Positions 11-63,501 of a DNA stretch of 64,000 bases are shown piece by piece. Under the pieces are notes generated by a model. That model did no database searches. It was not told where the DNA came from and was given only the letters and a program-made list of their open reading frames with translations. Position numbers and translations under genes: made by a program. How positions within the stretch are numbered: the first letter of the stretch is position 1; each line of letters starts with the position of its first letter. Source of the DNA: a virus; IMG/VR virus record IMGVR_UViG_3300045988_180454, positions 1,037 to 65,036 of that record. The stretch is one strand, 5' to 3'.

Positions 11-424
11 GGATCAGAGAAGTTTTTTTTGTTTGTATCAGCTGGTGAGGATTTTTTGTTTTCTCTCTTGCTGATGACTCCACTGTAGCGCGCGCTAGCG
101 GGGGAATGCAAGTTCAAATCTATGTGTTCTGTATCACACATCATTTCCCCTGGTCAGAGTAGGTTTTTGTTACTGCAAGTCCGCTACTAGGTTGCACGCA
201 ACCGCCGATTTTTGTGTCGTTTTTTGTGTTTTTGAGGTTTTTGTACATCTACAGTGACGAAAATCGACGCAAAACAGCAGGTCAAAGCACATTTTTGAAA
301 ACCCTTGACACACATACATAACACAAAAACTTGGCAAACATGCAGGTCAGAGTAGGTTTTTAAACGTTTTTATGTGTTTATGTGACGTAAATAGACATAA
401 AACACCAGGTCAGGGGCTATTTTT
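11..424 (+). repeat. six co-oriented copies of a ~19-nt motif (consensus GCAGGTCAGAGTAGGTTTTT: SWGGTSAG core, then a T5+ run at fixed distance)
   Basis: Copies read at 11-30, 42-57, 150-168, 278-296, 343-361 and 406-424. No ORF with a ribosome-binding site lies in this stretch. Confidence 0.8.
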
Positions 425-439
425 GTGTGTTTTTATCGC

Positions 440-640
440 TTTTTGGCCGGCTATAGCATCTAGATGCTGATCTAGCCGCTAGCGCATAGCGGCTAGCACC
501 CCCCCCGCTAGCCGGATTCTCTCTATATACAGCCCCTAGCAGCGCGCTAGGGGCGATTGAGCAGGCGTTTTAGGCTTATCCCTCCCTAGGGCGATTTTCT
601 ATGCCCTAGGCACCCGCTAGCCTAGGGGCGTTTCATCACA
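440..640. repeat. CTAG-saturated palindrome block
   Basis: About 11 CTAG tetramers in about 200 bp, in GCTAGC, CCTAGG and TCTAGA contexts. Perfect 14-bp palindrome AGCATCTAGATGCT at 455-468. GCCGCTA-N5-TAGCGGC at 475-493. Near-palindrome CCCCTAGCAGCGCGCTAGGGG at about 531-553. Confidence 0.8.
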
Positions 641-860
641 CTGACGATAAACAAAACGCCTTAGGGTAGCCTTGCCTTTGTTTTGGTCTGCTATTTACTA
701 GGTGCCAAGTTGTTAGTGGGCATAGAGATATTAGGTCATGGAAAAGATTAGGGGGCACAAAAGGTTTTGAAGTATGAAAAGTTTGGGGTATCTCATTTTT
801 TACCACTTGACAATTAGGTGGGTAAAATATCTTAGGCTGCATGTGTGAAGCCAAGGGGAA

Positions 861-938
861 CCTAACTAAGCCTTGCCTTAGTTAGGATAGCCTTAGTAAG
901 GGCAAGCTTACTTGAGGGTCAACCTCAACCTTCAACCT
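861..938. repeat. perfect 10-bp inverted repeat CCTAACTAAG-N6-CTTAGTTAGG (861-886), then a CAACCT(T) x3 micro-tandem (920-938)
   Basis: Read directly from the sequence. The region is non-coding: only RBS-less ORFs of implausible composition are present. Confidence 0.7.
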
Positions 939-3380: not shown

Positions 3381-3780
3381 GACTTCACCTAGGCAGTTCT
3401 GCAAGATCGAAAAGATCTTCGTATACGCCAACGCCTACCAGCTTCGCAACAAGGTGCTAGCTCAGATTGAGCAGGGGAGACCAGTCAAGCTAGGGAAAGG
3501 GTTTGATCCAGATCTTGATGGTCGCCTTAGCTGCTCGCTACAGGAAGTGCGTCGCTGGTACGTGCAGCACGGTGTGCCTGTGGTGTACTTTTTTGTGCAA
3601 AACCCCTTTGTGTTCAGGAGTGATTGGGATAATCCCCACAAGGAAATAAACTATTACCAAGAGATCTTCCCGTTCAACAGCACCCAAAGCGTGGTGATTG
3701 TATATAAAGGACAGTGGTTAGAGCGAGGATCCATCAACGTGATTCGGCTACACACGGAGGGTCCCTATGCCACAGATTGA
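3352..3780 (+). CDS. hypothetical protein
   Basis: GGAGG-N6-ATG at 3341-3354, in frame with track ORF 3325-3780. Confidence 0.6.
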   Translation: MHGKGITTFKTSPRQFCKIEKIFVYANAYQLRNKVLAQIEQGRPVKLGKGFDPDLDGRLSCSLQEVRRWYVQHGVPVVYFFVQNPFVFRSDWDNPHKEINYYQEIFPFNSTQSVVIVYKGQWLERGSINVIRLHTEGPYATD

Positions 3781-4261
3781 TTTTGAAAAGCTTACGGAAA
3801 AGATTGACAAGTTTACCCCTTTATGGTTCGACGAGTTTACCAAAGTGAGCAAGCTTGTTGATGAAGCGGAGCAAGAGGGGAAGCTGATTGACATCTATGC
3901 TAGTGCCAGCACCGTTGAGCTGTTGCAGTATGTCATTGCAGACGAGGAAGGCGAAATCAACGCGAGACAGGAGACAAACAAGCTGATCTATGCTCTACGC
4001 ACCTTAGAGCGCCAAGGTTACGTCCTGGACTACACCAGAAGCCGTTCAATTTGGCTTAAACCTCCAAGGCTTTACCGCAACGATCTTTACACTACTTTCC
4101 ATTGGAAAGACAGTGGTAACCCTTACTCTTTTGAAGCGTACTTTTCGGTTCCAACAGGGCTAGCTTTTCCCCTTATCTCTCTAGGGTACGGGTTATTGAA
4201 GCCTGGTCAACATAAGATCTTTGACAGTAAAGCTTCAATGCGTTCTGGTTATGAGGAGTAA
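3767..4261 (+). CDS. hypothetical protein
   Basis: GGAGGG-N5-ATG. ORF of 164 aa. Confidence 0.65.
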   Translation: MPQIDFEKLTEKIDKFTPLWFDEFTKVSKLVDEAEQEGKLIDIYASASTVELLQYVIADEEGEINARQETNKLIYALRTLERQGYVLDYTRSRSIWLKPPRLYRNDLYTTFHWKDSGNPYSFEAYFSVPTGLAFPLISLGYGLLKPGQHKIFDSKASMRSGYEE

Positions 4262-6076: not shown

Positions 6077-6416
6077 TGGCTTTATTATCAGATAAAATTA
6101 TCCATAAATCCCGTAAAGAAGCGCTTTGCGGTGTCTGTGCCGTGGTAATGCCGAAAGGTACCCACAGCGGGTTACAAAATGGATTGACGAAGATGCTTGT
6201 TGCTACTGCGTGATGCGGATTTGCCTGTCTTGTGATGGACTGGATTATGTAGATCGAATCAATGATGCCTGGTCTTCAGAAGAAGGAGCCCCGCTTGATA
6301 GTGGAGGTTTCATTAAGTCTGCTGTTCGCTTTGATTCAGATGCTATGCAAAACTATCTCCTAGATACAGTTTCAGAAGAAACAGATGATCGTTACCAAGC
6401 CGGCCTACGAAGGTGA
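6076..6416 (+). CDS. paralogue of the preceding zinc-ribbon protein, split over two frames near 6150-6170
   Basis: ATG 6076 overlaps the upstream stop (TAATG) and encodes ...SRKEALCGVCAVVMPKGT. This matches ARKQYVCCMCDCNIEPGE of the neighbour. The rest of the homology (RVTKWIDEDACCYC...) is in the frame of track ORF 6126-6416. Confidence 0.4.
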
Positions 6417-6474
6417 CTTACACTCAACACTGGCAACAACTGGTTAGCCAGTTGGGACAAAAAGGAAGAAGAAA

Positions 6475-6810
6475 ATGAACCAGAAGACAATTGGCTACGC
6501 CTATTTTAGGGCTTTAAAAGCACGATTCCGCAACCGCTACAAGAAGTACAAAAAGCAGCTACAATACGGCAAATGCCACCGTCCAATTTCTCGATCGTAC
6601 ATTGAAGAACCGCTACTTACTTTGGAAGAGTATTTCCCCTTCTTCCCCCGGTTAGAAGGCGATACGAACCCTCCGCAGAAGGATTACGCGGGCTTTGCTG
6701 ACGGCATTGAGAAGATCGGTTTTCCACCCGGCTACAAAGAAGGCGAAGTGGTAGAGCGGATGCGGAAAGCAATGGACAGTTTACCTGCTTTTGAAAACAA
6801 ACCTGAGTAA
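6475..6810 (+). CDS. hypothetical basic protein
   Basis: AAAGGAAGAAG-N4-ATG. ORF of 111 aa. Confidence 0.65.
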   Translation: MNQKTIGYAYFRALKARFRNRYKKYKKQLQYGKCHRPISRSYIEEPLLTLEEYFPFFPRLEGDTNPPQKDYAGFADGIEKIGFPPGYKEGEVVERMRKAMDSLPAFENKPE

Positions 6811-6814
6811 TGCA

Positions 6815-7108
6815 ATGTCTCATTATAACAGCGGCTGGTGTTTACTAAGTACTCTAAAAGAAATTGAGATGATAGAAGATTATTTCGCTCAGTTAAGGGT
6901 TTGTAAGCACCAGAAGAAAGCGATAAAGCTAGCTAAAGATATCTCAAGAATGAATAGCTTTCTTGGACATTGTTATCATTCTCACAATGCCAAGCCTCGG
7001 ATTTGCGCTCACTGTGAGGAATTAGTTCGTAGCTATTCCCAAAACATTGAGTCAAGACTTGCCTGGTGGCATAAAGAACTGGAGTTGAAACCTTATGTCA
7101 GATTATGA
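6815..7108 (+). CDS. hypothetical Cys/His-rich protein
   Basis: First ATG after the upstream stop, in frame with track ORF 6791-7108. Confidence 0.55.
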   Translation: MSHYNSGWCLLSTLKEIEMIEDYFAQLRVCKHQKKAIKLAKDISRMNSFLGHCYHSHNAKPRICAHCEELVRSYSQNIESRLAWWHKELELKPYVRL

Positions 7109-52141: not shown

Positions 52142-53830
52142 TTAACCGCCTAACCGAATCGGCACCTGCAAAAAGTCCGTCTCAATTTCCGCTGCACCTT
52201 TCGCCAAAGCTTGCAGGCGGGCCTCCCAGGACAGCACAGCCGCCATTGCTGCGTCATATTTGAGCTCTCGCTTAATTTTGGTTAACCGCCACTTCTGGTT
52301 GTTTTCGTCATCGTACTGATTTAAAAGGTTTTTCCCTGCATTACCGATATGCCGTTCAAGATCAGGATTGCCAGTATGAGCTAGGTCACCGGAATCTATA
52401 GCTTCTTTATATGAACGCAGTGCATAATACATAGGGTTTGTTTTATTAGTATACCAAAAGATAACTTTCTTTTCCCAACGTCCAGCCCAGGCGGACAATT
52501 GCTCTTGCCAATAAGGGGGATCGGCAAACATCCAGTAAACCTCGAAGTCTTCAAAAAGCGCCTCAACGGTCGCTTCAACCTCAGACACCGGAACTTCCCA
52601 GTTCCGTGAAGCTGGATCGTCCTTTGGTGGACGCTCCCAGAGACCCACAAGCTGCTGAACACCAGTATTAATATCGGTAATCACAATCGCTGTTGAGTCC
52701 TGAGTCTTAGCGCCGTCGAAGCCAATTGTTATCAGTGCCCCGTGCGGGATGCGAAGCTCTGGATCTCCTAGGTCAGCAAATTTCTTTCGATCAAAGGCGT
52801 ACATAGAGCTTGCAACCCAGCGGTTGCACCAAACCCGCTCAAGGCGGGAACGGTCCGCTCCTTCCTCGTCCCAAAGCTTCGCGGTAGCCAACAGATCACG
52901 CCACGTCGCCGGTCCCGCGGCTTCACGCAACGCCTTCAAGCGCTGAGCAATGGTGTCAAACTTCGCTAGCTCATCTGAGGTTTGACGATGATAAAAGAAC
53001 GTGGTGCAGTCATCAATCTTCAAGTGTTTCTTGTTCGCGTTCTTGACGCCTTCTTCAAATTCGCTCTTTGCAATTGAGTCCTCAGAAGGATGTCCAGCGG
53101 TAGTAATTGACAGCTTCCAGGTGCCGAACATACCGAGCTTCGGTAGGCCGTGCACCACCGTAGAATAAGCCTTCCGGTTCTGGTCGGAGGTAAACATATG
53201 GGTTTCGTCAAACACCACAAAGGTTGGTTTCAAACCTTCGGCGCTTCTTGAAGTAGCAGCTAGAGGAAGCGCTTTCGAGTTCACTTCACCCTGCACCATA
53301 ATCCGCTCTTGGGTCACGTCAAACCAATCAGCATCTGGTATTTCCTTCGCAATCTCCATGGCCACGCCATAACCAAGGTCAAACAGCAACTCTTTGGTTG
53401 GCGCGAAGAAGGGAATATAGGGAGATTGAACAGGAATACCGGGGGCTAACCCGCCGGGCATAGAGGGATCATACCCATTAAAACGAACCGGTGCCTCGGG
53501 ATGCAGTTCACAAAGCGCAACAATCGCGCCTAACTCAGTTTTGGCGCAACCTTTAGGGACCGCAACATTGACCGAATAGAAGTGCCTGCGACCGGACATG
53601 TCGATATATTCATCTTCGTACCTGGATTTATGCCCCTCAGGGAAATACTCGTAAGCACGCATGAGGATATATCGAAAATCTTCACGGACCTTATAGGGCT
53701 GTCCTTGCAACGGGCCTGGCCCGAACACAAAATGACTTTCAATAAAGTCAATGACTTGAGGCCCTAGGGTTGGCCAAATATCCAGCGTCCCATCTGGCTT
53801 TCTCGCTGGTTTAGGGGAAATAATTTCCAA
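52142..53830 (-). CDS. terminase large subunit
   Basis: Walker A-like PKGCAKTE, Walker B FVVFDETH, and nuclease-domain Asp in ITIGFDGAKTQD. Confidence 0.85.
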   Translation of the reverse strand: MEIISPKPARKPDGTLDIWPTLGPQVIDFIESHFVFGPGPLQGQPYKVREDFRYILMRAYEYFPEGHKSRYEDEYIDMSGRRHFYSVNVAVPKGCAKTELGAIVALCELHPEAPVRFNGYDPSMPGGLAPGIPVQSPYIPFFAPTKELLFDLGYGVAMEIAKEIPDADWFDVTQERIMVQGEVNSKALPLAATSRSAEGLKPTFVVFDETHMFTSDQNRKAYSTVVHGLPKLGMFGTWKLSITTAGHPSEDSIAKSEFEEGVKNANKKHLKIDDCTTFFYHRQTSDELAKFDTIAQRLKALREAAGPATWRDLLATAKLWDEEGADRSRLERVWCNRWVASSMYAFDRKKFADLGDPELRIPHGALITIGFDGAKTQDSTAIVITDINTGVQQLVGLWERPPKDDPASRNWEVPVSEVEATVEALFEDFEVYWMFADPPYWQEQLSAWAGRWEKKVIFWYTNKTNPMYYALRSYKEAIDSGDLAHTGNPDLERHIGNAGKNLLNQYDDENNQKWRLTKIKRELKYDAAMAAVLSWEARLQALAKGAAEIETDFLQVPIRLGG

Positions 53831-54546: not shown

Positions 54547-55839
54547 TTATTCAGCTAAGCGTTCAACGGATTCAACCCATTGATTTACCAGGTCTTTGAA
54601 ATCGGGTGGGACAAAGCCCTCGCCTTTTACAAACTTCCCTGTTTCTGGGTCGGTTTTCCCACCTTTGAACTTGGTGCGGTTTGATTCGCAAACCCGTTCG
54701 AGTGCTGCTGAAAGATCGTAACCGGTATGGGTTTTCACCGCCAAGCCTAAAAGAGTGAAAAGAACGTCGCCGAAGGCGTCGTAAAGATCGGTGAGCACTT
54801 TTTCTCGGTATTCTTGATCCAACGCAAACTTGGGCTTCGCCATGAGGTTTACCGCTGATTTGAGTTCGTCTACTTCTTCGAGGAAGAAGTTCAGTGCTGG
54901 ACGAAGCAGTGCTTCCCGGTCGCCTTCTGCATTCAACAGGATTTTCATATGGTCTGAAATGCTTGGCGGGATTTGTCCAACCTGCATGTTCCAGTTGCTT
55001 ACTTCGTTGACGAAACCATCAAAAGCCCAGTTTTGTGATTCCTTATAAGTAGTTGGCGCTTTGGGGTCTGTGCTTAAGCCTGCGTCTTCAAGAACCTTAC
55101 CAAAAACCGCACGGTCAAGATTGTAAAGTTCTTCGGCAATAAGTGCGATTACTGACCGGAACTCCGCATCTACACCTGCATCAGAACGCTTCTGAATAAT
55201 TTCTGACCAGGTTCGGAAGTTACCTGTAACCACAATTGATGTCGCGGTAGCATTTGGCAATACACAGCGAGCTGCTTCCGCTGCTTGTTTTTTAGAAGCC
55301 TCCGGGTGATAGCGCATTACCATGTCGAAAAGCTTATTGTACAGGTCTACGCTTTCGTTGGCGAAGCACTCTAGCTTTGCTTCCATTGATGCTTTAGGTG
55401 AAAGCGGAGGATAACTACCGCTATGAGTGAGGGGGAGGTCTTGTAAAGCCGGGGGAAGCACCATCTCTAACCCCTTATCTGGGGAAACAAAACGCTGAGA
55501 CAGTACGCTAAACGACAAGTGGCGGTGGCGCGTAAGCTCTGCCAAGAATGACCGGCTTACACTTTCAAGAAGGAATGTTGCCGAAGCGTGTTCCATGATG
55601 GAGTAGTGGTGTTTTTCATGGATCGTCTTCTCTACGTACTTAGTCGGCGTGTTGGTTTCCTCATTTGGACGATCCCAAGACTGGTAGCAGTTCCGTCCCG
55701 CAAACTCAATAAGACGGGTTGAATCTGGATCACCTGGTTCATGAGGAAGCACGTGTCCAAAATCGTAGTTGAACTCTGGATTTAGCCGGGTGAAGGCAAG
55801 TAATGTTACTTGCGGAGTCTGAGAGATTCGCACATTCAT
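54547..55839 (-). CDS. thyX: flavin-dependent thymidylate synthase fused to a MazG/all-alpha NTP-pyrophosphohydrolase-like domain
   Basis: ThyX signature RHRHLSFSVLSQR in the N-terminal ~270 aa. The C-terminal ~150 aa carry LEEVDELKSAV ... DAFGDVLFTLLGLA ... VCESNRTKF. Confidence 0.75.
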   Translation of the reverse strand: MNVRISQTPQVTLLAFTRLNPEFNYDFGHVLPHEPGDPDSTRLIEFAGRNCYQSWDRPNEETNTPTKYVEKTIHEKHHYSIMEHASATFLLESVSRSFLAELTRHRHLSFSVLSQRFVSPDKGLEMVLPPALQDLPLTHSGSYPPLSPKASMEAKLECFANESVDLYNKLFDMVMRYHPEASKKQAAEAARCVLPNATATSIVVTGNFRTWSEIIQKRSDAGVDAEFRSVIALIAEELYNLDRAVFGKVLEDAGLSTDPKAPTTYKESQNWAFDGFVNEVSNWNMQVGQIPPSISDHMKILLNAEGDREALLRPALNFFLEEVDELKSAVNLMAKPKFALDQEYREKVLTDLYDAFGDVLFTLLGLAVKTHTGYDLSAALERVCESNRTKFKGGKTDPETGKFVKGEGFVPPDFKDLVNQWVESVERLAE

Positions 55840-57631: not shown

Positions 57632-58146
57632 GGCAATTCACCTTCTACCTTTCGCATTTCCAGTTCAATAAGTCCATCGCGGAGGTCTTCGTATTTGTAA
57701 TACCTATCCTCAAGTTCTTGCAATAATTCCTCAAGATCGTCTTTAGAAACAATGCTGTCAACGAAAGAGTAGATCCAATCAAAAGGATATTCCACCAAGT
57801 ACTGGATGACTTCTTCAATGAGGATGCTTGAAGTAACATTTTCCAGATCGGGGAGCACAGGGAGCACTCTTTCCATATAGAAGTTCCGCAGGCCTGCTTT
57901 CTTTTGTTCAAACTGCTCCCAGAGTTGAAAAATATCCTCATCACTTAGGGGAGGTTCTTCTTCCTCGTGGGATTCAATAATGCTCTTGGGAAGCTTTTTG
58001 ATTTCTTCATCAATCGCTTCTTGAAGAGAGTCTTTGACTGCAAAAAGCCGGTTGATCCGCTTGGTTTCTTCGGACTCCTCTTCTAGGGAGAGATATAGGC
58101 GTAGCAGCTCTTCATCACTTGGTTGGTTGTACATGTTTAGTCGCAT
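57628..58146 (-). CDS. hypothetical acidic protein
   Basis: 172-aa ORF. Confidence 0.55.
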   Translation of the reverse strand: MRLNMYNQPSDEELLRLYLSLEEESEETKRINRLFAVKDSLQEAIDEEIKKLPKSIIESHEEEEPPLSDEDIFQLWEQFEQKKAGLRNFYMERVLPVLPDLENVTSSILIEEVIQYLVEYPFDWIYSFVDSIVSKDDLEELLQELEDRYYKYEDLRDGLIELEMRKVEGELP

Positions 58147-58259
58147 TCTCCCTTGTTATCGCTTTCTTCAAAGGCGTCCTCGAAAAATCTTCCCAGTAAT
58201 CATCACTGCAAGGATGATTGGACATGAAAGAAGACTTTCTCCGGCTTTTTGAAGAGTTA

Positions 58260-58463
58260 TTAAATTGTGTCCTTGTCCTGCGTCGATTGCGCATTGTTGT
58301 AGCCTTCCTTTCCTAAAATAGCCTGTTTAAAGGACTCCATTTGGGTTTCAAAGTCCTTTTGTCGGCGTTCTTCTGCTTCAGCATGAACTTTAAGAAATTC
58401 AGCAAAAGAACCAGGCTTGACATGAGTAAATTTTCTCGCTGGTTTATGGCTCATCTTGTTCAA
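58260..58463 (-). CDS. hypothetical small protein
   Basis: 67-aa ORF overlapping the upstream gene end. Confidence 0.45.
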   Translation of the reverse strand: MNKMSHKPARKFTHVKPGSFAEFLKVHAEAEERRQKDFETQMESFKQAILGKEGYNNAQSTQDKDTI

Positions 58464-58845
58464 GTCCTTCTAGGTAGTCAGACATTGATACCACTTTTTT
58501 GTTGACAGCCTCAATGTTTTCTTTCTGACAATCGTGCGCTAGGCAAAGGTAAGAGGCCGCGTCTAGGCTGTCATCAATGAGTGATTCTGGGTATTCCTCG
58601 TAGACACTGCCTAGAAAATCAGGGTCTTGGTCAACGCATTGACTAAAGTCCGTGTTGGCGGTTACTCGGGCAATTTTGAAAAGTGCCATCATCCGCGCTA
58701 CGTCTTCTGGAAGCAGGGTGATATCCGCGTCTTCCCGGGTTGAAAGATACGCCGACCATTGCTTGGCAATGGCGAGAAAAGTTTTATCGCCGTAGCTTTC
58801 GCCTCGGGTTTCTAGAATGCGTTGAATTTCTTTTGCCGTGTCCAC
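58444..58845 (-). CDS. DUF6378-like phage protein
   Basis: The pattern RGESYGD ... WSAYL ... LPEDVARMMALFKIARV is typical of that phage family, as I recall it. Confidence 0.45.
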   Translation of the reverse strand: MDTAKEIQRILETRGESYGDKTFLAIAKQWSAYLSTREDADITLLPEDVARMMALFKIARVTANTDFSQCVDQDPDFLGSVYEEYPESLIDDSLDAASYLCLAHDCQKENIEAVNKKVVSMSDYLEGLEQDEP

Positions 58846-58858
58846 GAGTTTTTCCTTT

Positions 58859-59497
58859 CTATGCAGACTGCTTTGATTCTAGCATAGTGAGGAATTTTTC
58901 GGTGCGGTCACTGATGGTTGTTGCCATGTCCTCAACTTCGGCTTCTGAAGCACAAATGTCCACGTTGGCTACGTGAGTAATATCTGTGTAGCCTTGTGCC
59001 TCCAAAATCTTTTGAGTGTCTTTCACGGCTGCGCAAAAATCCCGACCAAACGTAAGGTTCCCGACACCAATAATGAATTGGGGGGTGTCCCGCAAAATAA
59101 GTTTTTCTGCTTGCAAAAATTCTTTGAGTGGTTGGGGGATCATGTCGTCTTTCACCCGCCTTCCGATCGCTGGGTCGTCAACGAACCGTCCGTAGCTGGG
59201 AACCAACCACACCACAGAGGAATACATACGCTTTCCGCGGAACTGAGCTGCATCCATGTCGAGGGATGCGTATTGCTGTACAATTTCAAGCTTGATTCGA
59301 TCCACCGCCTTGAGGTGTCCCCTTACGCCTTCTTTAAGGGCATTCGTGAGACAAATTCCTTCAAACTTAGGAGCAGCCTTAGGGTTCCTTAGCCATAAAG
59401 TTTCCTTTAGCTTATCAAAGACTTTTTGAGTGTTACCGGAAAGACTGTAGGCAACAAGAAGATGGTTCATCCAAGGTTCAGGTTGGTTATTCGGCAT
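58859..59497 (-). CDS. nrdI: NrdI-like flavodoxin (longer than usual, 212 aa)
   Basis: LVAYSLSGNTQKVFDKL near the N-terminus and IIGVGNLTFGRDFCAA resemble the NrdI motifs (SxSGNT, GxGNxNFG). Confidence 0.5.
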   Translation of the reverse strand: MPNNQPEPWMNHLLVAYSLSGNTQKVFDKLKETLWLRNPKAAPKFEGICLTNALKEGVRGHLKAVDRIKLEIVQQYASLDMDAAQFRGKRMYSSVVWLVPSYGRFVDDPAIGRRVKDDMIPQPLKEFLQAEKLILRDTPQFIIGVGNLTFGRDFCAAVKDTQKILEAQGYTDITHVANVDICASEAEVEDMATTISDRTEKFLTMLESKQSA

Positions 59498-59957
59498 CGA
59501 GGTTTTCCTTTTCAGTTACTAGTCCTAGTTTGAGTTTTTGAATCATTTCTTTTGCCAACTCCTGGTCTTCTTCGGATAGGGTGGTGATTCGCTCTTCCAG
59601 GTCCCGTACCGCGCGGAGGGAGTCGACGGTGATTCGGCTACAGGCAAAGGGGAAATGGTTGGTCTTAAACAACTCAATTAAAGCGTTTCCCGCTTCTAGG
59701 AATTGCCTTTTGTCTTCCGGGGTGAAAAGCAGCTCTGGTCCGTAGAGGGCCGGGACTAGAGCCTCACGGAGTTCTTCTGCATCAAAGACTTTTTCTAGAG
59801 GCAGAATGATTTGGATTTTGCCTGACTCAAGAAGTTTCTCCGCTAGTTCTTTTTTGACTCGTTTTACGGACTCTGGATTGGGGAACTCAAAAGTTTCTTG
59901 CCTGATTGCGGCGAGTAGCGCTAGGGAGTCTTCGTCTAGTTGGATTTCTAGCTTCAC
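59487..59957 (-). CDS. hypothetical protein, first gene of this minus-strand block
   Basis: AGAAAGGAAAA-N4-GTG. ORF of 156 aa. Confidence 0.55.
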   Translation of the reverse strand: MKLEIQLDEDSLALLAAIRQETFEFPNPESVKRVKKELAEKLLESGKIQIILPLEKVFDAEELREALVPALYGPELLFTPEDKRQFLEAGNALIELFKTNHFPFACSRITVDSLRAVRDLEERITTLSEEDQELAKEMIQKLKLGLVTEKENLDAE

Positions 59958-59984
59958 GTATTTTCCTTTCTGTGTCGTGACTCA

Positions 59985-60011
59985 ATTATATATGACAGGG
60001 GAGGGGTTCAA
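59985..60011 (-). promoter_or_regulatory. promoter candidate TTGAAC-N15-TATAAT
   Basis: Minus-strand TATAAT is plus-strand 59985-59990 and TTGAAC is 60006-60011. The spacer is short. Confidence 0.3.
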
Positions 60012-60039
60012 GGTTTTGAGTCAAGATATCTTTGTCACA

Positions 60040-61020
60040 CGTTAAAGCAAAACAAAAACAAAAAAAATTATGCAGAAAAACTTGAGTTAAGTGAGTTTTT
60101 GAGTTAACGGTGTTCAAAACATATCTTGACCTGCATAAATACCTAACTCAAATTCAAATCAAAAGTTGAGTTAGGGTTTTGAGTCAGAAAAAGTTGAGTT
60201 GGAGACGTTTAAACACAAAGAAACTCAAAAATTTACCCAAAAAAGTTGAGTTGAGTTGAGTTTTTGAGTTAAGTCAATGAAACCCACTCTGACCTGCACA
60301 AACCCGTAACTCAACTTTAACTCAAAAACTGAGTTGAGTTGAGTTAGGCGAAAAACTGAGTTGAAATTTAAAGCAAAATAAATCGAAAAATTTGTACAAA
60401 AAAGTTGAGTTACTTGAGTTAATTTGAGTTTACCCTATTTGACCTGCGGAAATGCTGACTCAAATTCCAACTCAAGTTTTGAGTTGAGTTTTGAGTTGAG
60501 GATTGTCCGGGTTTCAGACTTCGGTTGAGCCGCCGGTGAGGCAAGGAAGAGACCGCAACCCACCGATTATGGCGCTGAAACAGGGTCTCAACTCAAATTC
60601 TGACTCAGTTTTCGCAAAAACAGCAAGACTCTGACCTGCATAAATACGTAACTCAAATTCTAACTCAAAAAGTTGAGTTGGCCTTTTCGCTGGTCAGGAT
60701 AGGTTTTTAGGGGCTAACTCAAAAACTCAACTTTTTTGTCGATATTTTATAACTAATAACGCTTTAACGCTTATTAGTTGTGCACAGCTGTATTTTCTCT
60801 ATACGCATTATTTTACAATTTAAATTGAGTTATTGAGTTAGAGTAGTGAAAAGGGTATCTGACCTGGTAAAACAGTAACTCAATTTCAACTCAACTTTTT
60901 ATTTTCCCAGGTCAGAATTTGAGTTGAAACTGAGTTAGCAGTTCAGAGGGTATTTTTGAAACACGAAAAACCGGGATTTCGGGTTTCCAACTCAAAAAGT
61001 TGAGTTAGGCAGAAAAAGAC
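60040..61020. repeat. heptamer field: about 40 copies of TTGAGTT/AACTCAA in five ~50-bp composite units
   Basis: Composite unit: TGACCTG-N8/9-TAACTCAA-N4/5-AACTCAA-N4-TTGAGTT. TGACCTG cores lie at 60127, 60289, 60439, 60631 and 60859. Runs such as GTTGAGTTGAGTTGAGTTTTTGAGTT occur at 60245-60270. Confidence 0.9.
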
Positions 61021-61083
61021 GCCTTGACTAAAAAACCGAAAGCGGCTGGTTCAAGGCGTGTGCTCAAATTTGAGCGGCTGATT

Positions 61084-61608
61084 TTAAGAATATTGGTTGT
61101 ACAGATTCTGCTGTTGCTTCTCCCACTCCTGAGCGAAAGTGCGGTCATTCGTAGCCGCGGCTCGGAGTTGTTCGCTGCGCTGCACCGCGGTGTTCCCTTG
61201 AGCGATAGTCCAGCGGAGCTTGACACGCGCCTCAGGCGTGAGTCCGAATTGTTTAATGCCGTCCATCCAAAGCTTTTGGAATCGTGCTCGGTCGGCGGCC
61301 TTGTACATTGGGTTCAAGGATTCCTGGAGGTCTCCAGCGAGAATCACGAGGGTGTGATAGTCTGCGGCTGTCCATTCGCTCACCATCGGCGAGGTCCAGA
61401 TCTCTTCCCACCAGCGGAGGACTACCGGGGACCATTTCGTCTCCTCGGCACCGATAAGATCGGCGGGAAAACCCACGACTTCGCTAGCAGGCGGAAGCTC
61501 TGGTAAGCTAGCTAGCAGCTCTTCTCGCGGCCTTTGTGCTAGCATGGTGGTAGCGGCCTTGGCACCCTTTTTTGACGGGCCTCCGGGCTTCCTGGGGGGT
61601 CCTGGCAT
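61084..61608 (-). CDS. terminase small subunit-like protein (P27-like)
   Basis: The pattern W..VVLRWWEEIWTSP ... DYHTLVILAGDL ... KQFGLTPEARVKL is typical of actinophage small terminases. The N-terminus is basic. Confidence 0.55.
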   Translation of the reverse strand: MPGPPRKPGGPSKKGAKAATTMLAQRPREELLASLPELPPASEVVGFPADLIGAEETKWSPVVLRWWEEIWTSPMVSEWTAADYHTLVILAGDLQESLNPMYKAADRARFQKLWMDGIKQFGLTPEARVKLRWTIAQGNTAVQRSEQLRAAATNDRTFAQEWEKQQQNLYNQYS

Positions 61609-61770
61609 AGCGATATGGTCCTTTCCTTAGCTGAGCAGGGTCATCAAGGACATTTTACCCCAATCCCTCGCAGAGCGAAATGTGCAGCACGCGCCCGGCT
61701 CGGCCCCAGATAGGGGGAGGGGGTACCCCTGGGTGAGGTAGAACGGGGGTAATTTGTGGGGGTAGTCGCT

Positions 61771-61898
61771 TTGTTTCCCCTGGTGAGTCGCAATATATAT
61801 ACCGCAAATTGGGCATGGGTGGGGGTATATAAGTGGGTTTCTCTGGTTGCATGGGGTTGTCTGACCACCTGTTTTTACCGGAAAAACCCGGTTTTTTG
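61771..61898 (+). ncRNA. candidate small transcription unit (TTGTTT-N17-TATATA promoter to ACCGG-loop-CCGGT-T6 terminator)
   Basis: Promoter-like boxes at 61771-61799. Hairpin plus T6 at 61877-61898. No ORF lies between them. Confidence 0.3.
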
Positions 61899-62039
61899 CT
61901 TGTTTTATCAGTTTCTCTTAAGTCTTGCATGGATTTTGCATGCTATAGGTCAATCTTTTTACGGTCTATAGCATCAACTAAAAGTTTGATTGTAGCAATA
62001 GGTGTGGGTGGTTTTCCCTATCAAGGCCATTTCTTAGGG

Positions 62040-62682
62040 TAGGCTATGCTCACGTACGGGTGCACGCAATCGGTATGGCAATTGAACTATAGGATTGTCC
62101 ATAGGTGCCGATAGGCATACCGCATCAAAGGGATTGCCTATGTGTGCCTATCCACCATATAGGCAAGTGTATATAAAGCCGAATATAATAATTCGCAATC
62201 GTTTATATAGGCCATGCCTCAATATACCCGGCTAGGGGCTATCCGGGTGGTGCCTACCCCCTAGGCATGCCATGCAGCATGCCTAGCAGCCATGTGCTAG
62301 CGCTATGCCATGGCCTGCTGATCTAGGCCACTCAAAAGCGTATGGCCTAGCAGCCTCATAGACGCACGAACTCAAAGCCATATAGCCGATCATACCAGCG
62401 AGATATAAAGCCGCTGTATCGAGCTGCTAGGCTATCTATATCACATATCCCCTGGTGAGTAGATAGTGATATGTGGTGTGGTGCCAGTGGATACCCCTAT
62501 GATAGCAATGGTACTAATAGGCTATATGTGTGGTGTACTATCAGTATGCCATATGGCATATCCCTAGGCATGCCAAAACCCTACCTATAGTAGGTACCTA
62601 TATAGATACCCCTATAGATAGGGTTGGTATATGGATACCCCCTATAGCAGGGGGCATAGAGTATGCCTATACGATAGATAGG
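62040..62682. repeat. non-coding field of CTAG-, ATAGG- and GGCATGCC-type short palindromes and repeats
   Basis: CCCTAGGCATGCC occurs at about 62258 and 62563. GCCTAGCAGCC occurs at about 62281 and 62346. GATACCCC(C)TAT(A/G) occurs at about 62490, 62606 and 62634. ATAGGC/GCCTAT appears many times between 62090 and 62170. Confidence 0.8.
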
Positions 62683-63390
62683 TCAGTGGTAGTCAAACAT
62701 GTGTTCGATACGGTCGATAAGCAGGGGGCTACCGGAATCGGTCAACCAAAAGTTTTTGGCACGGAAATATTGGTAAAAATCTACCCAGTTTTCCCACCAA
62801 AATAATTCGTCTAAAGGCACCCGGTGGGCGTCGTGGTGGATATCAAAGCCGGTTTTGGGGCGATAGCCAAATACGTGTTTTTGTGCCATACCACCGGCTA
62901 AAAAGCGATTTTGATTGTGGTTATGGCTGACCCACCAAGTGACGCGACCAAAATCCGGGTGGATAAATTGGCCCTCAAAACCATTCTCAAAACTGCCTTG
63001 TTTTTGGGCGAAAAACGAAGCGTTTTCCACGCTCACCAGGGCGTCGATAATGTACGCCGAATGAATGCATGACTCGAAATTTTGTTCGAGTTCGTTTTGA
63101 TTTTCCGGCTCATCAGCTAGATGCTGCTGTAAAATCGGTGCCATATGCTGGTCCCATAGGCGTCGCCAATCACGAACGGTTCGGTAAGAAGAATCGTTAA
63201 TAAATGTTTGAAGCAGCGAATAATAGGCTACGCGAATATCTAAAACCGCGTCATGGGGCGTCATGTTGATGCTGAAAAATTCGGGTAAGACCTGGTAGGC
63301 GTAGGTTTCGAGCTGGTTTTTGAGTGAATGGGGCGTTTTGGCAATCCAAAAATCAGCAGAAAAAATGTCAGGGTTTCGATAGGTTCCCAT
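62683..63390 (-). CDS. hypothetical protein (His/Trp-rich)
   Basis: 235-aa ORF with a GGAT-containing leader. No motif recognised. Confidence 0.55.
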   Translation of the reverse strand: MGTYRNPDIFSADFWIAKTPHSLKNQLETYAYQVLPEFFSINMTPHDAVLDIRVAYYSLLQTFINDSSYRTVRDWRRLWDQHMAPILQQHLADEPENQNELEQNFESCIHSAYIIDALVSVENASFFAQKQGSFENGFEGQFIHPDFGRVTWWVSHNHNQNRFLAGGMAQKHVFGYRPKTGFDIHHDAHRVPLDELFWWENWVDFYQYFRAKNFWLTDSGSPLLIDRIEHMFDYH

Positions 63391-63501
63391 AGGGATATCC
63401 TTTCAAATCGAGTGAGTGATAGAGAGTAAGGACCTATAAGTGTGCGTAAGTCTTATAAGCCCCTCCCCCTACCATCACAAGCAGTGATGATAGGTTTTAC
63501 C

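What the first reader, a model, noticed from the sequence alone, without database searches (positions are those of the whole stretch)
60040..61020. 1-kb non-coding field saturated with TTGAGTT/AACTCAA heptamers in five composite units
By hand count there are roughly 26 TGAGTT and 14 AACTCA heptamers within about 980 bp that contain no credible ORF. They form five units of the type TGACCTG-N8/9-TAACTCAA-N4/5-AACTCAA-N4-TTGAGTT. The TGACCTG cores are at 60127, 60289, 60439, 60631 and 60859. The field also holds heptamer runs, a GC-rich island (60500-60590) and an AT-rich 9-bp inverted repeat: AACTAATAA at 60751-60759 pairs with TTATTAGTT at 60771-60779. This density suggests a protein-binding array. 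It could be an iteron-type replication origin, or a TerS recognition (pac/cos-proximal) array, since the TerS-like gene is adjacent. It could also be a partition or regulator landing pad. None of these can be assigned from sequence alone.
Basis: partly seen in the sequence, partly recalled or inferred. Interest (0 to 1): 0.85.

Follow-up and report, generated by a model that had tools for sequence, protein, structure and literature searches.

The report
Phage control region packed with heptamers
A 1-kb gene-free stretch just inside one end of an actinobacterial phage genome carries about 40 copies of a 7-base motif around seven copies of a family-wide direction-specific signal; it is most likely the control region of the phage's virion-gene operon, possibly also a replication start, and not a packaging site.

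Summary
34 of the window's 57 TTGAGTT/AACTCAA heptamers lie in 60082-61006, there is no ORF over 43 aa, and the five TGACCTG units exist with small coordinate corrections.

The window is a cos phage of the Zierdtviridae type (TerL 58% identical to Corynebacterium phage Darwin). Homology to Darwin's ends, plus a contig that starts exactly there, place the physical genome end at about 61686. That is 78 bp upstream of terS, so the field lies 670-1650 bp inside the left end, behind terS and its terminator.

TGACCTG is the reverse complement of a 17-nt box (aWWWyCsCWGGTCAGAG). The box recurs in noncoding DNA across the family (Darwin, P1201, Gordonia phage NosilaM, metagenomic relatives) and points at the downstream gene in 36 of 41 cases.

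Each lineage surrounds its left-arm boxes with its own short repeat: TTGAGTT here, GTAGTA, TGAGCAA, GTTGTAT or TGACAG elsewhere. In close relatives the heptamer positions are 2-3 times better conserved than the spacers.

Best reading: tandem promoter-like boxes with operator heptamers for an unidentified phage regulator, controlling the 32-kb left-arm operon (confidence 0.45). A transcription-linked replication origin is a serious rival (0.28). A TerS recognition array is not supported. No function was tested.

The parts
60040..61020 (.). The whole heptamer field: a noncoding gap between terS and the next gene. It is a degenerate tandem array of about 5 units.
   Evidence: It is 91.5% identical in relatives whose flanks are 83-87% identical.
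60124..60133 (-). Box 1 (CAGGTCAAGA), pointing at the gene that starts at 59957.
60287..60296 (-). Box 2 (CAGGTCAGAG), canonical.
60437..60446 (-). Box 3 (CAGGTCAAAT).
60629..60638 (-). Box 4 (CAGGTCAGAG). It forms a back-to-back pair with the + strand box at 60690.
60857..60866 (-). Box 5 (CAGGTCAGAT). It forms a back-to-back pair with the + strand box at 60908 and points into the AT-rich core.
60690..60699 (+). Opposite-strand box (CTGGTCAGGA, followed by TAGGTTTTT). It points into the AT-rich core.
   Evidence: Inverted repeat I1.
60908..60917 (+). Opposite-strand box (CAGGTCAGAA). It points toward the 3' end of terS.
60082..61006 (.). 42 TGAGT(T/C) / (A/G)ACTCA sites: 27 forward and 15 reverse. 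They include (TGAGT)3 runs at 60246-60262, 60329-60345 and 60479-60497, and AACTCAA-N3-5-TTGAGTT palindromes at 60319-60336, 60469-60485, 60662-60679 and 60989-61006. Three sites phased 11-12 bp apart lie next to each - strand box.
60709..60845 (.). AT-rich core. It holds the most AT-rich 100 bp of the window (60727-60826, 26% GC). It is almost invariant in relatives. It is a ~130-bp imperfect palindrome with heptamer-pair arms at 60714-60733 and 60822-60841 and a nested 9-bp inverted repeat at 60751-60779.
   Evidence: (I15).
60500..60590 (.). GC-rich island (58% GC) between units 3 and 4. It is the least conserved part of the field in L003 and shows no significant RNA fold.
61034..61047 (-). 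Terminator-like hairpin plus T-run just after the terS stop codon.
61061..61076 (+). Terminator-like hairpin plus T-run on the + strand. It would stop transcription from the 60908 box at the terS stop codon.
61084..61608 (-). terS (Pfam Terminase_7).
61675..61700 (-). cos junction. On the - strand the sequence reads ...GGGCGCGTGC | TGCACATTTCGCTCTGCG..., so the left genome end is at about 61686.
59487..59957 (-). First gene downstream of the field (156 aa, no family). It heads the - strand operon that runs to 27719 and includes NrdI-like, ThyX-MazG, TerL, virion and lysis genes.
150..415 (+). Second cluster of four boxes (150, 278, 343, 406), pointing at the + strand early/replication operon. 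It has no TTGAGTT; its flanking repeats are TTTTTGTGT / ACACAAAAA.

Best explanation
The field is the control region of the phage's left-arm operon.

Boxes. Each of the five ~160-bp units carries, on the - strand, one copy of a family-wide 17-nt directional box (aWWWyCsCWGGTCAGAG, often followed by GGTTTTT). I infer that the box is a phage-class promoter or promoter-proximal element. The box does not look like a sigma-A -35/-10 promoter, so either a modified host RNA polymerase or a phage factor must read it.

Heptamers. The TTGAGTT/AACTCAA heptamers flank every box. Two or three sit upstream at 11-12-bp (one helical turn) intervals, and inverted copies sit downstream. I infer that they are operator sites for an unidentified sequence-specific phage protein. 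That protein would coat the region cooperatively and time transcription, by repression or activation, into the 32-kb operon that starts at 59957. That operon runs through the nucleotide-metabolism genes and TerL to the virion and lysis genes.

Opposite-strand boxes. The two + strand boxes (60690, 60908) form back-to-back pairs with boxes 4 and 5. One points into the AT-rich core. The other points at a + strand terminator next to terS.

Shown here: the motifs, their clustering, their conservation, the family-wide distribution and orientation of the box, the lineage-specific short repeats, and the position of cos. Inferred only: promoter activity, protein binding and the identity of the binder.
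For: 1. The box is family-wide and noncoding. It occurs in Darwin, P1201, NosilaM and the metagenomic lineages L091, L094/L097 and L106, whose TerS is 29-47% identical to the window's. In Darwin, 6 of 7 C[AT]GGTCAGA matches are noncoding. Of those six, 65666 lies inside a 126-bp annotated hypothetical ORF (gp52), which I treat as unlikely to be coding.

2. Orientation. By my tally over, 36 of 41 boxes point at the gene downstream. In gaps flanked by same-strand genes the split is 18 versus 4. Divergent gaps in Darwin (3609-, 3684- | 3842+, 3929+), P1201 (three - | three +) and L091 show boxes facing the two diverging genes.

3. Promoter-like positions. Single boxes sit 60-210 nt upstream of start codons, between cos and terS in P1201 and the Gordonia phages, and upstream of int in the unrelated Streptomyces phage Joe.

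4. No alternative promoter. The forward boxes are the only candidate promoters found ahead of the structural operon here (one search finds no sigma-70-type promoter in the field). NosilaM has the same layout, with a 747-bp gap after terS.

5. Lineage-specific repeats around the boxes. TTGAGTT here; TGAGCAA x11 in L091; GTAGTA/ACTACA in Darwin and NosilaM; (AAAA)GTTGTAT in L106; TGACAG x16 in P1201.

6. Selection on the heptamers. They show 3.2-5.1% mismatches, against 9.4-14.7% elsewhere in the field. They are also conserved between the paralogous units, while the spacers between them differ.

7. The early-operon box cluster (150-415) lacks TTGAGTT, so the heptamers distinguish the two box clusters.
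Against: No transcription data exist for any member of the family, and I found no paper that describes the box.

The box has no conserved -35 partner. Only 22% of copies are followed by an actinobacterial TAnnnT hexamer; this is enriched about 2.5-fold but is not general.

Five boxes point the 'wrong' way. Four of them point back at terS (two here, two in NosilaM). The pair 60690+/60866- would give convergent transcription across the AT-rich core, which is odd for plain promoters.

The fixed spacing between heptamer and box could partly reflect the common descent of the five units.

No DNA-binding domain was found in 30 early ORFs by Pfam, and PHROGs gave no regulator annotation for the 30 largest + strand ORFs, 20 of which are the same ORFs. 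No binder can therefore be named.
Confidence: 0.45

Rival explanations
1. Replication origin. In this reading the heptamers are iterons for a phage initiator, for example the 865-aa primase-helicase, as phage P4 alpha protein binds 8-bp iterons at ori and crr. The AT-rich palindromic core 60709-60845 would be the unwinding element. The boxes would fire transcription into it, as in the promoter-plus-DUE origins of T4 and T7. This reading can coexist with the promoter reading.
For: The core holds the most AT-rich 100 bp of the 64-kb window (26% GC). It is nearly invariant in relatives whose flanks differ by 9-17%. It is a significant palindrome (z -3.4). Inverted heptamer pairs and two convergent boxes flank it.

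The short repeats occur in both orientations and as 5-bp-period runs.

Unit copy number varies between strains with identical TerS. P1201 carries 8 perfect 109-bp repeats at the same place.

In P1201 and L106 a forward box also fires into a 150-250-bp AT-rich stretch that is followed by further boxes.

The P4, T4 and T7 analogies rest on my own knowledge.
Against: The field is 33 kb from the replication genes.

The C-terminus of the primase-helicase does not co-vary with the repeat type.

Darwin has a more classical origin-like region elsewhere, with 11 bp x 10 repeats plus a long AT-rich array beside the early genes.

In Darwin and L091 the AT-rich stretch lies between diverging boxes, and NosilaM's 190 bp between its diverging boxes is not AT-rich. 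The geometry is therefore not conserved.

Boxes also occur singly at promoter-like positions.
Confidence: 0.28
2. TerS recognition array, cosB- or pac-like. TerS would bind the heptamers to position terminase for cleavage at cos.
For: The field is next to terS and within 1.7 kb of the genome end. Known TerS sites are short repeated boxes, such as the lambda cosB R sites and SPP1 pacL/pacR (own knowledge).
Against: cos lies on the other side of terS, 78 bp upstream of its ATG. The terS ORF and a terminator separate it from the field.

Darwin has 26 bp between terS and the next gene. The arrays of Darwin, P1201 and L091 lie 3.5-6 kb from the end.

Darwin and NosilaM share the GTAGTA repeat at 48% TerS identity. 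Darwin-L091 (59%) and Darwin-L106 (55%) have different repeats.

Darwin has its own repeat array (CTTAGTTAGG, about seven copies) 100-200 bp from its right end, which is a better cosB-like candidate.
Confidence: 0.05
3. Decoy or sponge for a host regulator. TTGAGT/ACTCAA is the half-site of the HspR operator HAIR (CTTGAGT-N7-ACTCAAG). Dozens of half-sites on a replicating genome could titrate HspR and switch on host chaperones.
For: The half-site is identical to the HAIR arms; the consensus is cited in PMC6102357. HspR is described there as binding cooperatively beyond the core site.
Against: No HAIR-type dyad occurs in the field, even with 3 mismatches allowed. The field's palindromes have the opposite arrangement, AACTCAA-N3-5-TTGAGTT. 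Sister lineages use unrelated repeats at the same place. The host is unknown.
Confidence: 0.04
4. Partition centromere (parS-, parC- or sopC-like), or a selectively neutral satellite.
For: It is a tandem, copy-number-variable array of short repeats.
Against: No ParA/ParB/ParM/ParR-like or integrase genes were found among the ORFs scanned, and the gene content looks lytic. The selective conservation of motif positions argues against neutrality.
Confidence: 0.04

Closest known systems
Promoter-operator arrays of temperate phages: the asymmetric 13-bp stoperators of mycobacteriophage L5 / Cluster A, and the P2 Cox and 186 Apl arrays of direct repeats phased about 10.5 bp apart (own knowledge; Cluster A immunity paper PMC6550527 seen but not read)
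   Same: Many short sites for one small phage protein. The sites are tied to the direction of transcription, are helically phased, overlap or flank promoters, and have lineage-specific sequences.
   Different: Here about 42 sites are packed into 1 kb in both orientations. They are combined with a separate conserved box. The phage looks lytic, and no repressor-like gene is recognisable.
Omega (RHH) heptad arrays of plasmid pSM19035 (own knowledge)
   Same: A 7-bp unit, in direct and inverted orientations, with many copies upstream of promoters. The same array serves both regulation and a second DNA transaction.
   Different: Omega heptads are contiguous. Here the spacings are 5, 8 and 11-12 bp. 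The sequence is different, and no RHH gene was found.
Phage P4 ori/crr iterons bound by the alpha primase-helicase; promoter-plus-DUE origins of T4 (oriF/oriG) and T7 (own knowledge)
   Same: Short repeats in both orientations. An AT-rich unwinding candidate. Promoter-like elements aimed at it. The phage encodes a large primase-helicase.
   Different: No binding or replication data exist. The primase C-terminus does not co-vary with the repeat type. The geometry is not conserved across the family.
Lambda cosB R sites and SPP1 pacL/pacR boxes, which are TerS sites (own knowledge)
   Same: Repeated short boxes near terS and near a genome end.
   Different: The field is on the wrong side of terS, 0.7-1.7 kb from cos, and its position is not conserved in relatives with homologous TerS.
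Left-arm noncoding regions of other Zierdtviridae: the NosilaM 716-1461 gap, the Darwin 3547-4141 gap and the P1201 5555-7186 region
   Same: The same CWGGTCAGAG boxes, flanking short repeats, AT-rich stretches and, in P1201, tandem units. All lie in the first 1-7 kb of the left arm.
   Different: They use other short repeats, have fewer copies, and mostly have diverging rather than tandem boxes. I found no paper on these regions in the searches I ran; two of the three are unannotated, and the P1201 record calls its tandem repeats as tiny ORFs.

Membership tests
Iteron-type replication origin | A cluster of repeated initiator-binding sites. | tested here: inconclusive
   There are 42 heptamer sites, but they are 7 bp long, in mixed orientation and irregularly spaced at 5/8/11-12 bp, unlike 17-22-bp direct iterons.
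Iteron-type replication origin | An adjacent AT-rich unwinding element. | tested here: met
   60727-60826 is the most AT-rich 100 bp of the window (26% GC). It is palindromic and nearly invariant in relatives.
Iteron-type replication origin | A cognate initiator gene that is adjacent or co-varies with the repeats. | tested here: not met
   No initiator gene lies next to the field. The primase-helicase is 33 kb away and its C-terminus does not track the repeat type.
Iteron-type replication origin | Supports replication initiation. | not testable with these tools
   This needs marker-frequency or plasmid-replication assays.
TerS recognition array (cosB/pac) | Lies beside the terminase cleavage site. 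| tested here: not met
   cos is at about 61686, upstream of terS. The field is 670-1650 bp away, beyond terS and a terminator.
TerS recognition array (cosB/pac) | Position and sequence co-vary with TerS among relatives. | tested here: not met
   The field is absent next to terS in Darwin and L091. The repeat type does not follow TerS identity.
TerS recognition array (cosB/pac) | Bound by TerS. | not testable with these tools
   This needs EMSA or footprinting.
Phage promoter with operator repeats | A conserved element in noncoding DNA, oriented toward downstream genes. | tested here: met
   36 of 41 boxes are co-oriented with the downstream gene; the split is 18 versus 4 in same-strand gaps. 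This is my tally over.
Phage promoter with operator repeats | Recognisable -35/-10 or another known polymerase recognition pattern. | tested here: not met
   No conserved -35 is present, and TAnnnT follows only 22% of boxes. No phage RNA polymerase or sigma factor was found among the ORFs scanned or in the Darwin annotation. Most of the window's - strand virion ORFs, including the 2192-aa one, were not scanned.
Phage promoter with operator repeats | Transcription starts at the element, and a regulator binds the repeats. | not testable with these tools
   No transcriptome of any family member was found.
HspR operator (HAIR) | Inverted repeat CTTGAGT-N7-ACTCAAG. | tested here: not met
   There is no match within 3 mismatches in the field. 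The field's dyads are AACTCAA-N3-5-TTGAGTT.
Partition centromere | Partner partition genes (ParA/ParB or ParM/ParR) in the genome. | tested here: not met
   None appear among the ORFs scanned with Pfam or PHROGs. Not every small ORF was scanned.
Structured RNA gene | An Rfam match or a significant conserved fold. | tested here: not met
   No Rfam family matches. The GC island folds no better than shuffles.

The most novel reading that the evidence does not exclude
Zierdtviridae-type actinophages share an undescribed control module with two parts. One is a conserved 17-nt directional box that is not a sigma-A promoter; it also occurs in Streptomyces phage Joe, so a conserved host or phage factor may read it. 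The other is a fast-evolving, lineage-specific short repeat, amplified here to about 42 copies. The amplified array would be a high-capacity landing pad that both times the virion operon and fires transcription into an AT-rich core to start replication. This would be a combined late-promoter and origin switch whose reader proteins are all unknown.
Probability: 0.2. Interest if true: 0.7.

Novelty: new variant of a known kind. Interest (0 to 1): 0.55.

Why it matters
Gene regulation and replication initiation are essentially uncharted for this large group of lytic phages of Corynebacterium, Gordonia and Rhodococcus. Relatives of the window's phage also turn up in human-associated metagenomes.

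A conserved directional box plus a lineage-specific repeat gives concrete, testable cis-elements. They can be used to map promoters, fish out the unknown regulator, and build expression or replication tools for actinobacteria.

The analysis also fixes the genome end and removes a tempting but wrong assignment of the field as the packaging site.

Tried and rejected
- Near-identity searches of 58000-63500 against the phage and plasmid collections found nothing.
- The composite pattern TGACCTG-N8/9-TAACTCAA in IMG/VR returned 81 stretches. Apart from stretches of contigs already fetched as close relatives, and one further stretch (L090), none had heptamer enrichment.
- Rfam, at both gathering and E-value thresholds, and tRNA scans were negative. 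The GC island has no significant fold.
- The sigma-70 promoter scan of the field was negative. A TAnnnT hexamer after the box is enriched but present in only 22% of copies.
- I tested primase-helicase and TerS as the repeat reader by co-variation. Neither gave support.
- The 156-aa gene downstream of the field was tested as a conserved partner. It has no homologue in the other lineages.
- Pfam on 30 early ORFs and PHROGs on the 30 largest + strand ORFs named no DNA-binding protein.
- The HspR/HAIR lead was rejected on dyad geometry.
- Host identification through the endolysin returned only a phage contig binned into a 'Streptococcus' MAG, which is uninformative.
- Literature searches found no description of the box or of these arrays.
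- GC skew follows gene orientation and composition and gives no origin signal.
Full report

Yes. TTGAGTT occurs 57 times on both strands of the window, against 12.3 +/- 3.3 in dinucleotide-preserving shuffles, and 34 of these lie in 60082-61006. The binomial P for that clustering is about 1e-46.

Counted as hexamers, 60000-61030 holds 25 TGAGTT, 13 AACTCA, 2 TGAGTC and 2 GACTCA.

Two inverted copies, at 60690 and 60908, were missed.

The unit syntax is broadly right, with three corrections:
- The spacer to T(A/G)ACTCAA is 9-10 nt, not 8-9.
- Unit 1 has a degenerate second heptamer.
- Unit 5 carries the inverted box where the others carry the closing TTGAGTT.

The units belong to a degenerate tandem array with a period of about 150-230 bp. 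The longest ORF inside the field is 43 aa. There is no tRNA and no Rfam family. The GC island (58% GC) and the 9-bp inverted repeat are as described.

**2. What genome is this, and where are its ends?**

The TerL gene (52142-53830, - strand) is 58% identical to the TerL of Corynebacterium phages Darwin, Zion and C3PO, and 53% identical to that of P1201. It is 45-46% identical to TerL of Gordonia and Rhodococcus phages. All of these are Zierdtviridae.

Gene order matches the left end of Darwin in reverse orientation: terS, a hypothetical gene, an NrdI-like flavodoxin, ThyX/MazG, then TerL.

The Darwin record ends with ...CTACGGTGC and begins with TGTACATTATTTCGCGCGACAGTTGGGG. The window's - strand reads ...GGGCGCGTGC|TGCACATTTCGCTCTGCGAGGGATTGGGG. 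Three further lines of evidence agree with a physical end there:
- A relative's contig (L092) begins with an Illumina adapter tail followed by TGCACAATATC.
- A contig with an identical TerS (L187) begins exactly with TGCACATTTCGC.
- Across the family, terS repeatedly sits 80-600 bp from contig ends.

The left physical end is therefore at about window 61686, 78 bp upstream of the terS ATG. The field lies 670-1650 bp inside the end. The terS ORF and a terminator-like hairpin (61047-61034, - strand) separate the field from cos.

**3. Conservation of the field.**

IMG/VR and ENA/Logan relatives are 82-88% identical to the window in flanking DNA. All carry the field, at 88-92% identity.

Within the field, heptamer positions show 3.2-5.1% mismatches, against 9.4-14.7% for the remaining positions (Fisher P 7e-4 and 2.5e-5). 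These relatives are not independent of one another.

The best-conserved segment is the AT-rich core, 60709-60845. The GC island is the least conserved segment in L003.

Unit number varies. L002 and L185 each lack one unit of about 165 bp, although L185 encodes an identical TerS.

**4. The TGACCTG core is a family-wide directional box.**

Read on the - strand, the core is CAGGTCA(G/A)(A/G). The same box, usually cgCAGGTCAGAG, recurs in the noncoding DNA of distant relatives whose TerS is 29-47% identical and whose GC content ranges from 46% to 65%. These are L091, L094/L097, L106, Darwin, P1201 and Gordonia phage NosilaM with its cluster.

A frequency table from 59 non-redundant copies gives aWWWyCsCWGGTCAGAG, followed weakly by GGTnTTT. 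There is no conserved -35-like partner.

In Darwin, six of seven strong matches are noncoding, counting 65666, which lies inside a 126-bp annotated hypothetical ORF that I treat as unlikely to be coding. All six point at the gene downstream:
- 3609- and 3684- point toward gp06.
- 3842+ and 3929+ point toward gp07.
- 65666+ and 66940+ lie near the right end. 65666+ points at gp51; 66940+ points across cos at terS.

P1201 has one box before terS, three facing gp12 and three facing the rightward genes. L097 has four in tandem between terS and the next gene. L106 has three before a gene, the last of them 78 nt upstream of its ATG.

My tally over these calls is 36 of 41 boxes co-oriented with the downstream gene, and 18 versus 4 in gaps flanked by same-strand genes. 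Four of the five exceptions are boxes that point back at terS, two here and two in NosilaM. That may itself be a conserved feature.

Two canonical boxes also occur in the unrelated Streptomyces phage Joe. One is upstream of attP/int and the other is near the right end.

In the window, a second cluster of four boxes (150-415, + strand) precedes the early/replication operon. The five - strand boxes of the field precede the 32-kb - strand operon, which runs through TerL to the virion and lysis genes.

**5. The heptamer is the lineage-specific part.**

Each lineage surrounds its left-arm boxes with its own short repeat:
- TTGAGTT here, often extended to AAAAGTTGAGTT.
- AAAAGTTGTAT in L106.
- TGAGCAA, 11 copies, in L091.
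- GTAGTA/ACTACA in Darwin and NosilaM.
- TGACAG, 16 copies, in P1201, inside eight perfect 109-bp tandem repeats.

In the window, two or three heptamers sit immediately upstream of each - strand box at 11-12-bp intervals, and inverted copies follow downstream. L091 shows the same 'repeats - box - inverted repeats' layout.

The heptamer palindrome AACTCAA-N4-TTGAGTT occurs nowhere else in the window. The early box cluster has no TTGAGTT at all.

**6. Most likely mechanism.**

I read the box as a phage-class promoter or promoter-proximal element. I read the heptamers as operators for an unidentified phage DNA-binding protein that coats the region and times transcription of the left-arm operon. 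The features that fit this reading are orientation, position upstream of gene blocks, distances of 60-210 nt to start codons, and the absence of any other promoter candidate.

Several things do not fit well:
- There is no -35/-10 pattern.
- TAnnnT follows only 22% of boxes, about 2.5-fold above background.
- Boxes 60690+ and 60866- converge on the AT-rich core.
- No regulator gene could be named.

No transcriptome or description of these elements was found in the literature. Confidence is 0.45.

**7. Rival readings.**

*Origin of replication (0.28).* The case for it:
- The core holds the most AT-rich 100 bp of the window.
- The core is nearly invariant.
- The core is palindromic and is flanked by inverted heptamer pairs and convergent boxes.
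- Unit number is variable.
- P1201 and L106 also have a box firing into an AT-rich stretch.

This resembles the promoter-plus-DUE origins of T4 and T7 and the ori/crr iterons of P4 (own knowledge). The case against it:
- The primase-helicase C-terminus does not co-vary with repeat type.
- Darwin has a more classical origin-like array elsewhere.
- The geometry differs between lineages.

The origin and promoter readings are not exclusive.

*TerS array (0.05).* It is rejected on position, on its absence next to terS in Darwin and L091, and on lack of co-variation with TerS.

*HspR decoy (0.04).* The half-site matches, but the dyad does not.

*Centromere or neutral satellite (0.04).* No partition genes were found, and the motif positions are under selection.

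**8. Comparison with known systems, and novelty.**

The field works most like phage promoter-operator arrays (L5 stoperators, P2 Cox and 186 Apl repeats, omega heptads) or like short-iteron origins (P4). It is not a demonstrable member of any of them. The defining tests are binding, transcription start and replication start, and these tools cannot perform them. The sequence-level features that could be tested were only partly met.

To my knowledge and in the literature searched, two things have not been described. One is the combination of a conserved directional box with rapidly changing short repeats across a phage family. The other is the amplification to about 42 copies in five to seven units seen here.

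I rate it a new variant of a known kind, with interest 0.55. It is a real, selected and unusually dense element with a clear experimental path. Its general category, a phage regulatory or origin region, is familiar.

Noticed in passing
window 61675-61700: The cos junction can be placed by homology. On the - strand the window reads ...GGGCGCGTGC|TGCACATTTCGCTCTGCGAGGGATTGGGG, matching Darwin's right and left termini. Contig L187 starts exactly at TGCACATTTCGC, and contig L092 starts with adapter sequence followed by the homologous end.
   Followed up: yes
window 150-440: A second cluster of four CWGGTCA boxes faces the early + strand operon. They are flanked by a different short repeat (TTTTTGTGT / ACACAAAAA / GTTTTTATGTGT). 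TTGAGTT is absent.
   Followed up: partly
window 440-900: A GC-rich stretch full of GCTAGC/CCTAGG-type palindromes (440-640) is followed by CCTTAG/CTAAG(G) repeats, for example CCTAACTAAGCCTTGCCTTAGTTAGG at about 860-885. The same CTTAGTTAGG word is repeated about seven times 100-200 bp from Darwin's right end.
   Followed up: no
window 61687-62683: About 1 kb of noncoding DNA on the right-end side of cos carries its own repeat families (TATAGG/CCTATA, CCCTAGGCATGCCA x2, TCCCCTGGTGAGT x2) and several palindromes. It is a better place than the heptamer field to look for terminase recognition sites.
   Followed up: partly
window 60922-61090 (+): The + strand box at 60908 is followed about 150 nt later by a + strand terminator-like hairpin (61061-61076) that ends at the terS stop codon. 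The 169-nt interval folds better than all 200 shuffles (z -3.5). It may be a small antisense or noncoding RNA.
   Followed up: partly
L002, and L185 versus L184/L186/L187: Copy number of the ~165-bp unit varies between strains. The gap from terS to the next gene is 959 bp in L185, against 1123-1126 bp in the others, although L185 has an identical TerS protein.
   Followed up: partly
L181 (P1201) 6310-7090: Eight perfect 109-bp tandem repeats follow the P1201 box cluster. The GenBank record annotates parts of them as three identical 4.8-kDa ORFs (gp14-16), which are probably not genes.
   Followed up: no
Darwin 61337-62330 (L009 1338-2331): The divergent early region of Darwin holds ATGGGCGCACT x10 (an 11-bp tandem repeat) and a long TTTAATTAT-type AT-rich array. 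It also holds a canonical TTGACA-N18-TACTGT promoter facing the early operon. The region looks like a replication origin.
   Followed up: no
L179 (Streptomyces phage Joe) 36501 and 48720: Two canonical cgCAGGTCAgagcc boxes occur in an unrelated Streptomyces phage, one upstream of attP/int and one near the right end. This hints that a factor conserved across Actinobacteria reads the box.
   Followed up: partly
window 54547-55839 (-): ThyX and a MazG-like pyrophosphohydrolase are fused in one 430-aa ORF here. In Darwin they are separate genes (gp09, gp10).
   Followed up: no
L185 1-25; L188: Contig L185 is chimeric with a human Alu sequence at the phage end. A 96%-identical phage contig is binned into an 'uncultured Streptococcus' MAG. 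The phage is common in human-associated samples (14 contigs carry the identical TerS), but its host remains unidentified.
   Followed up: no
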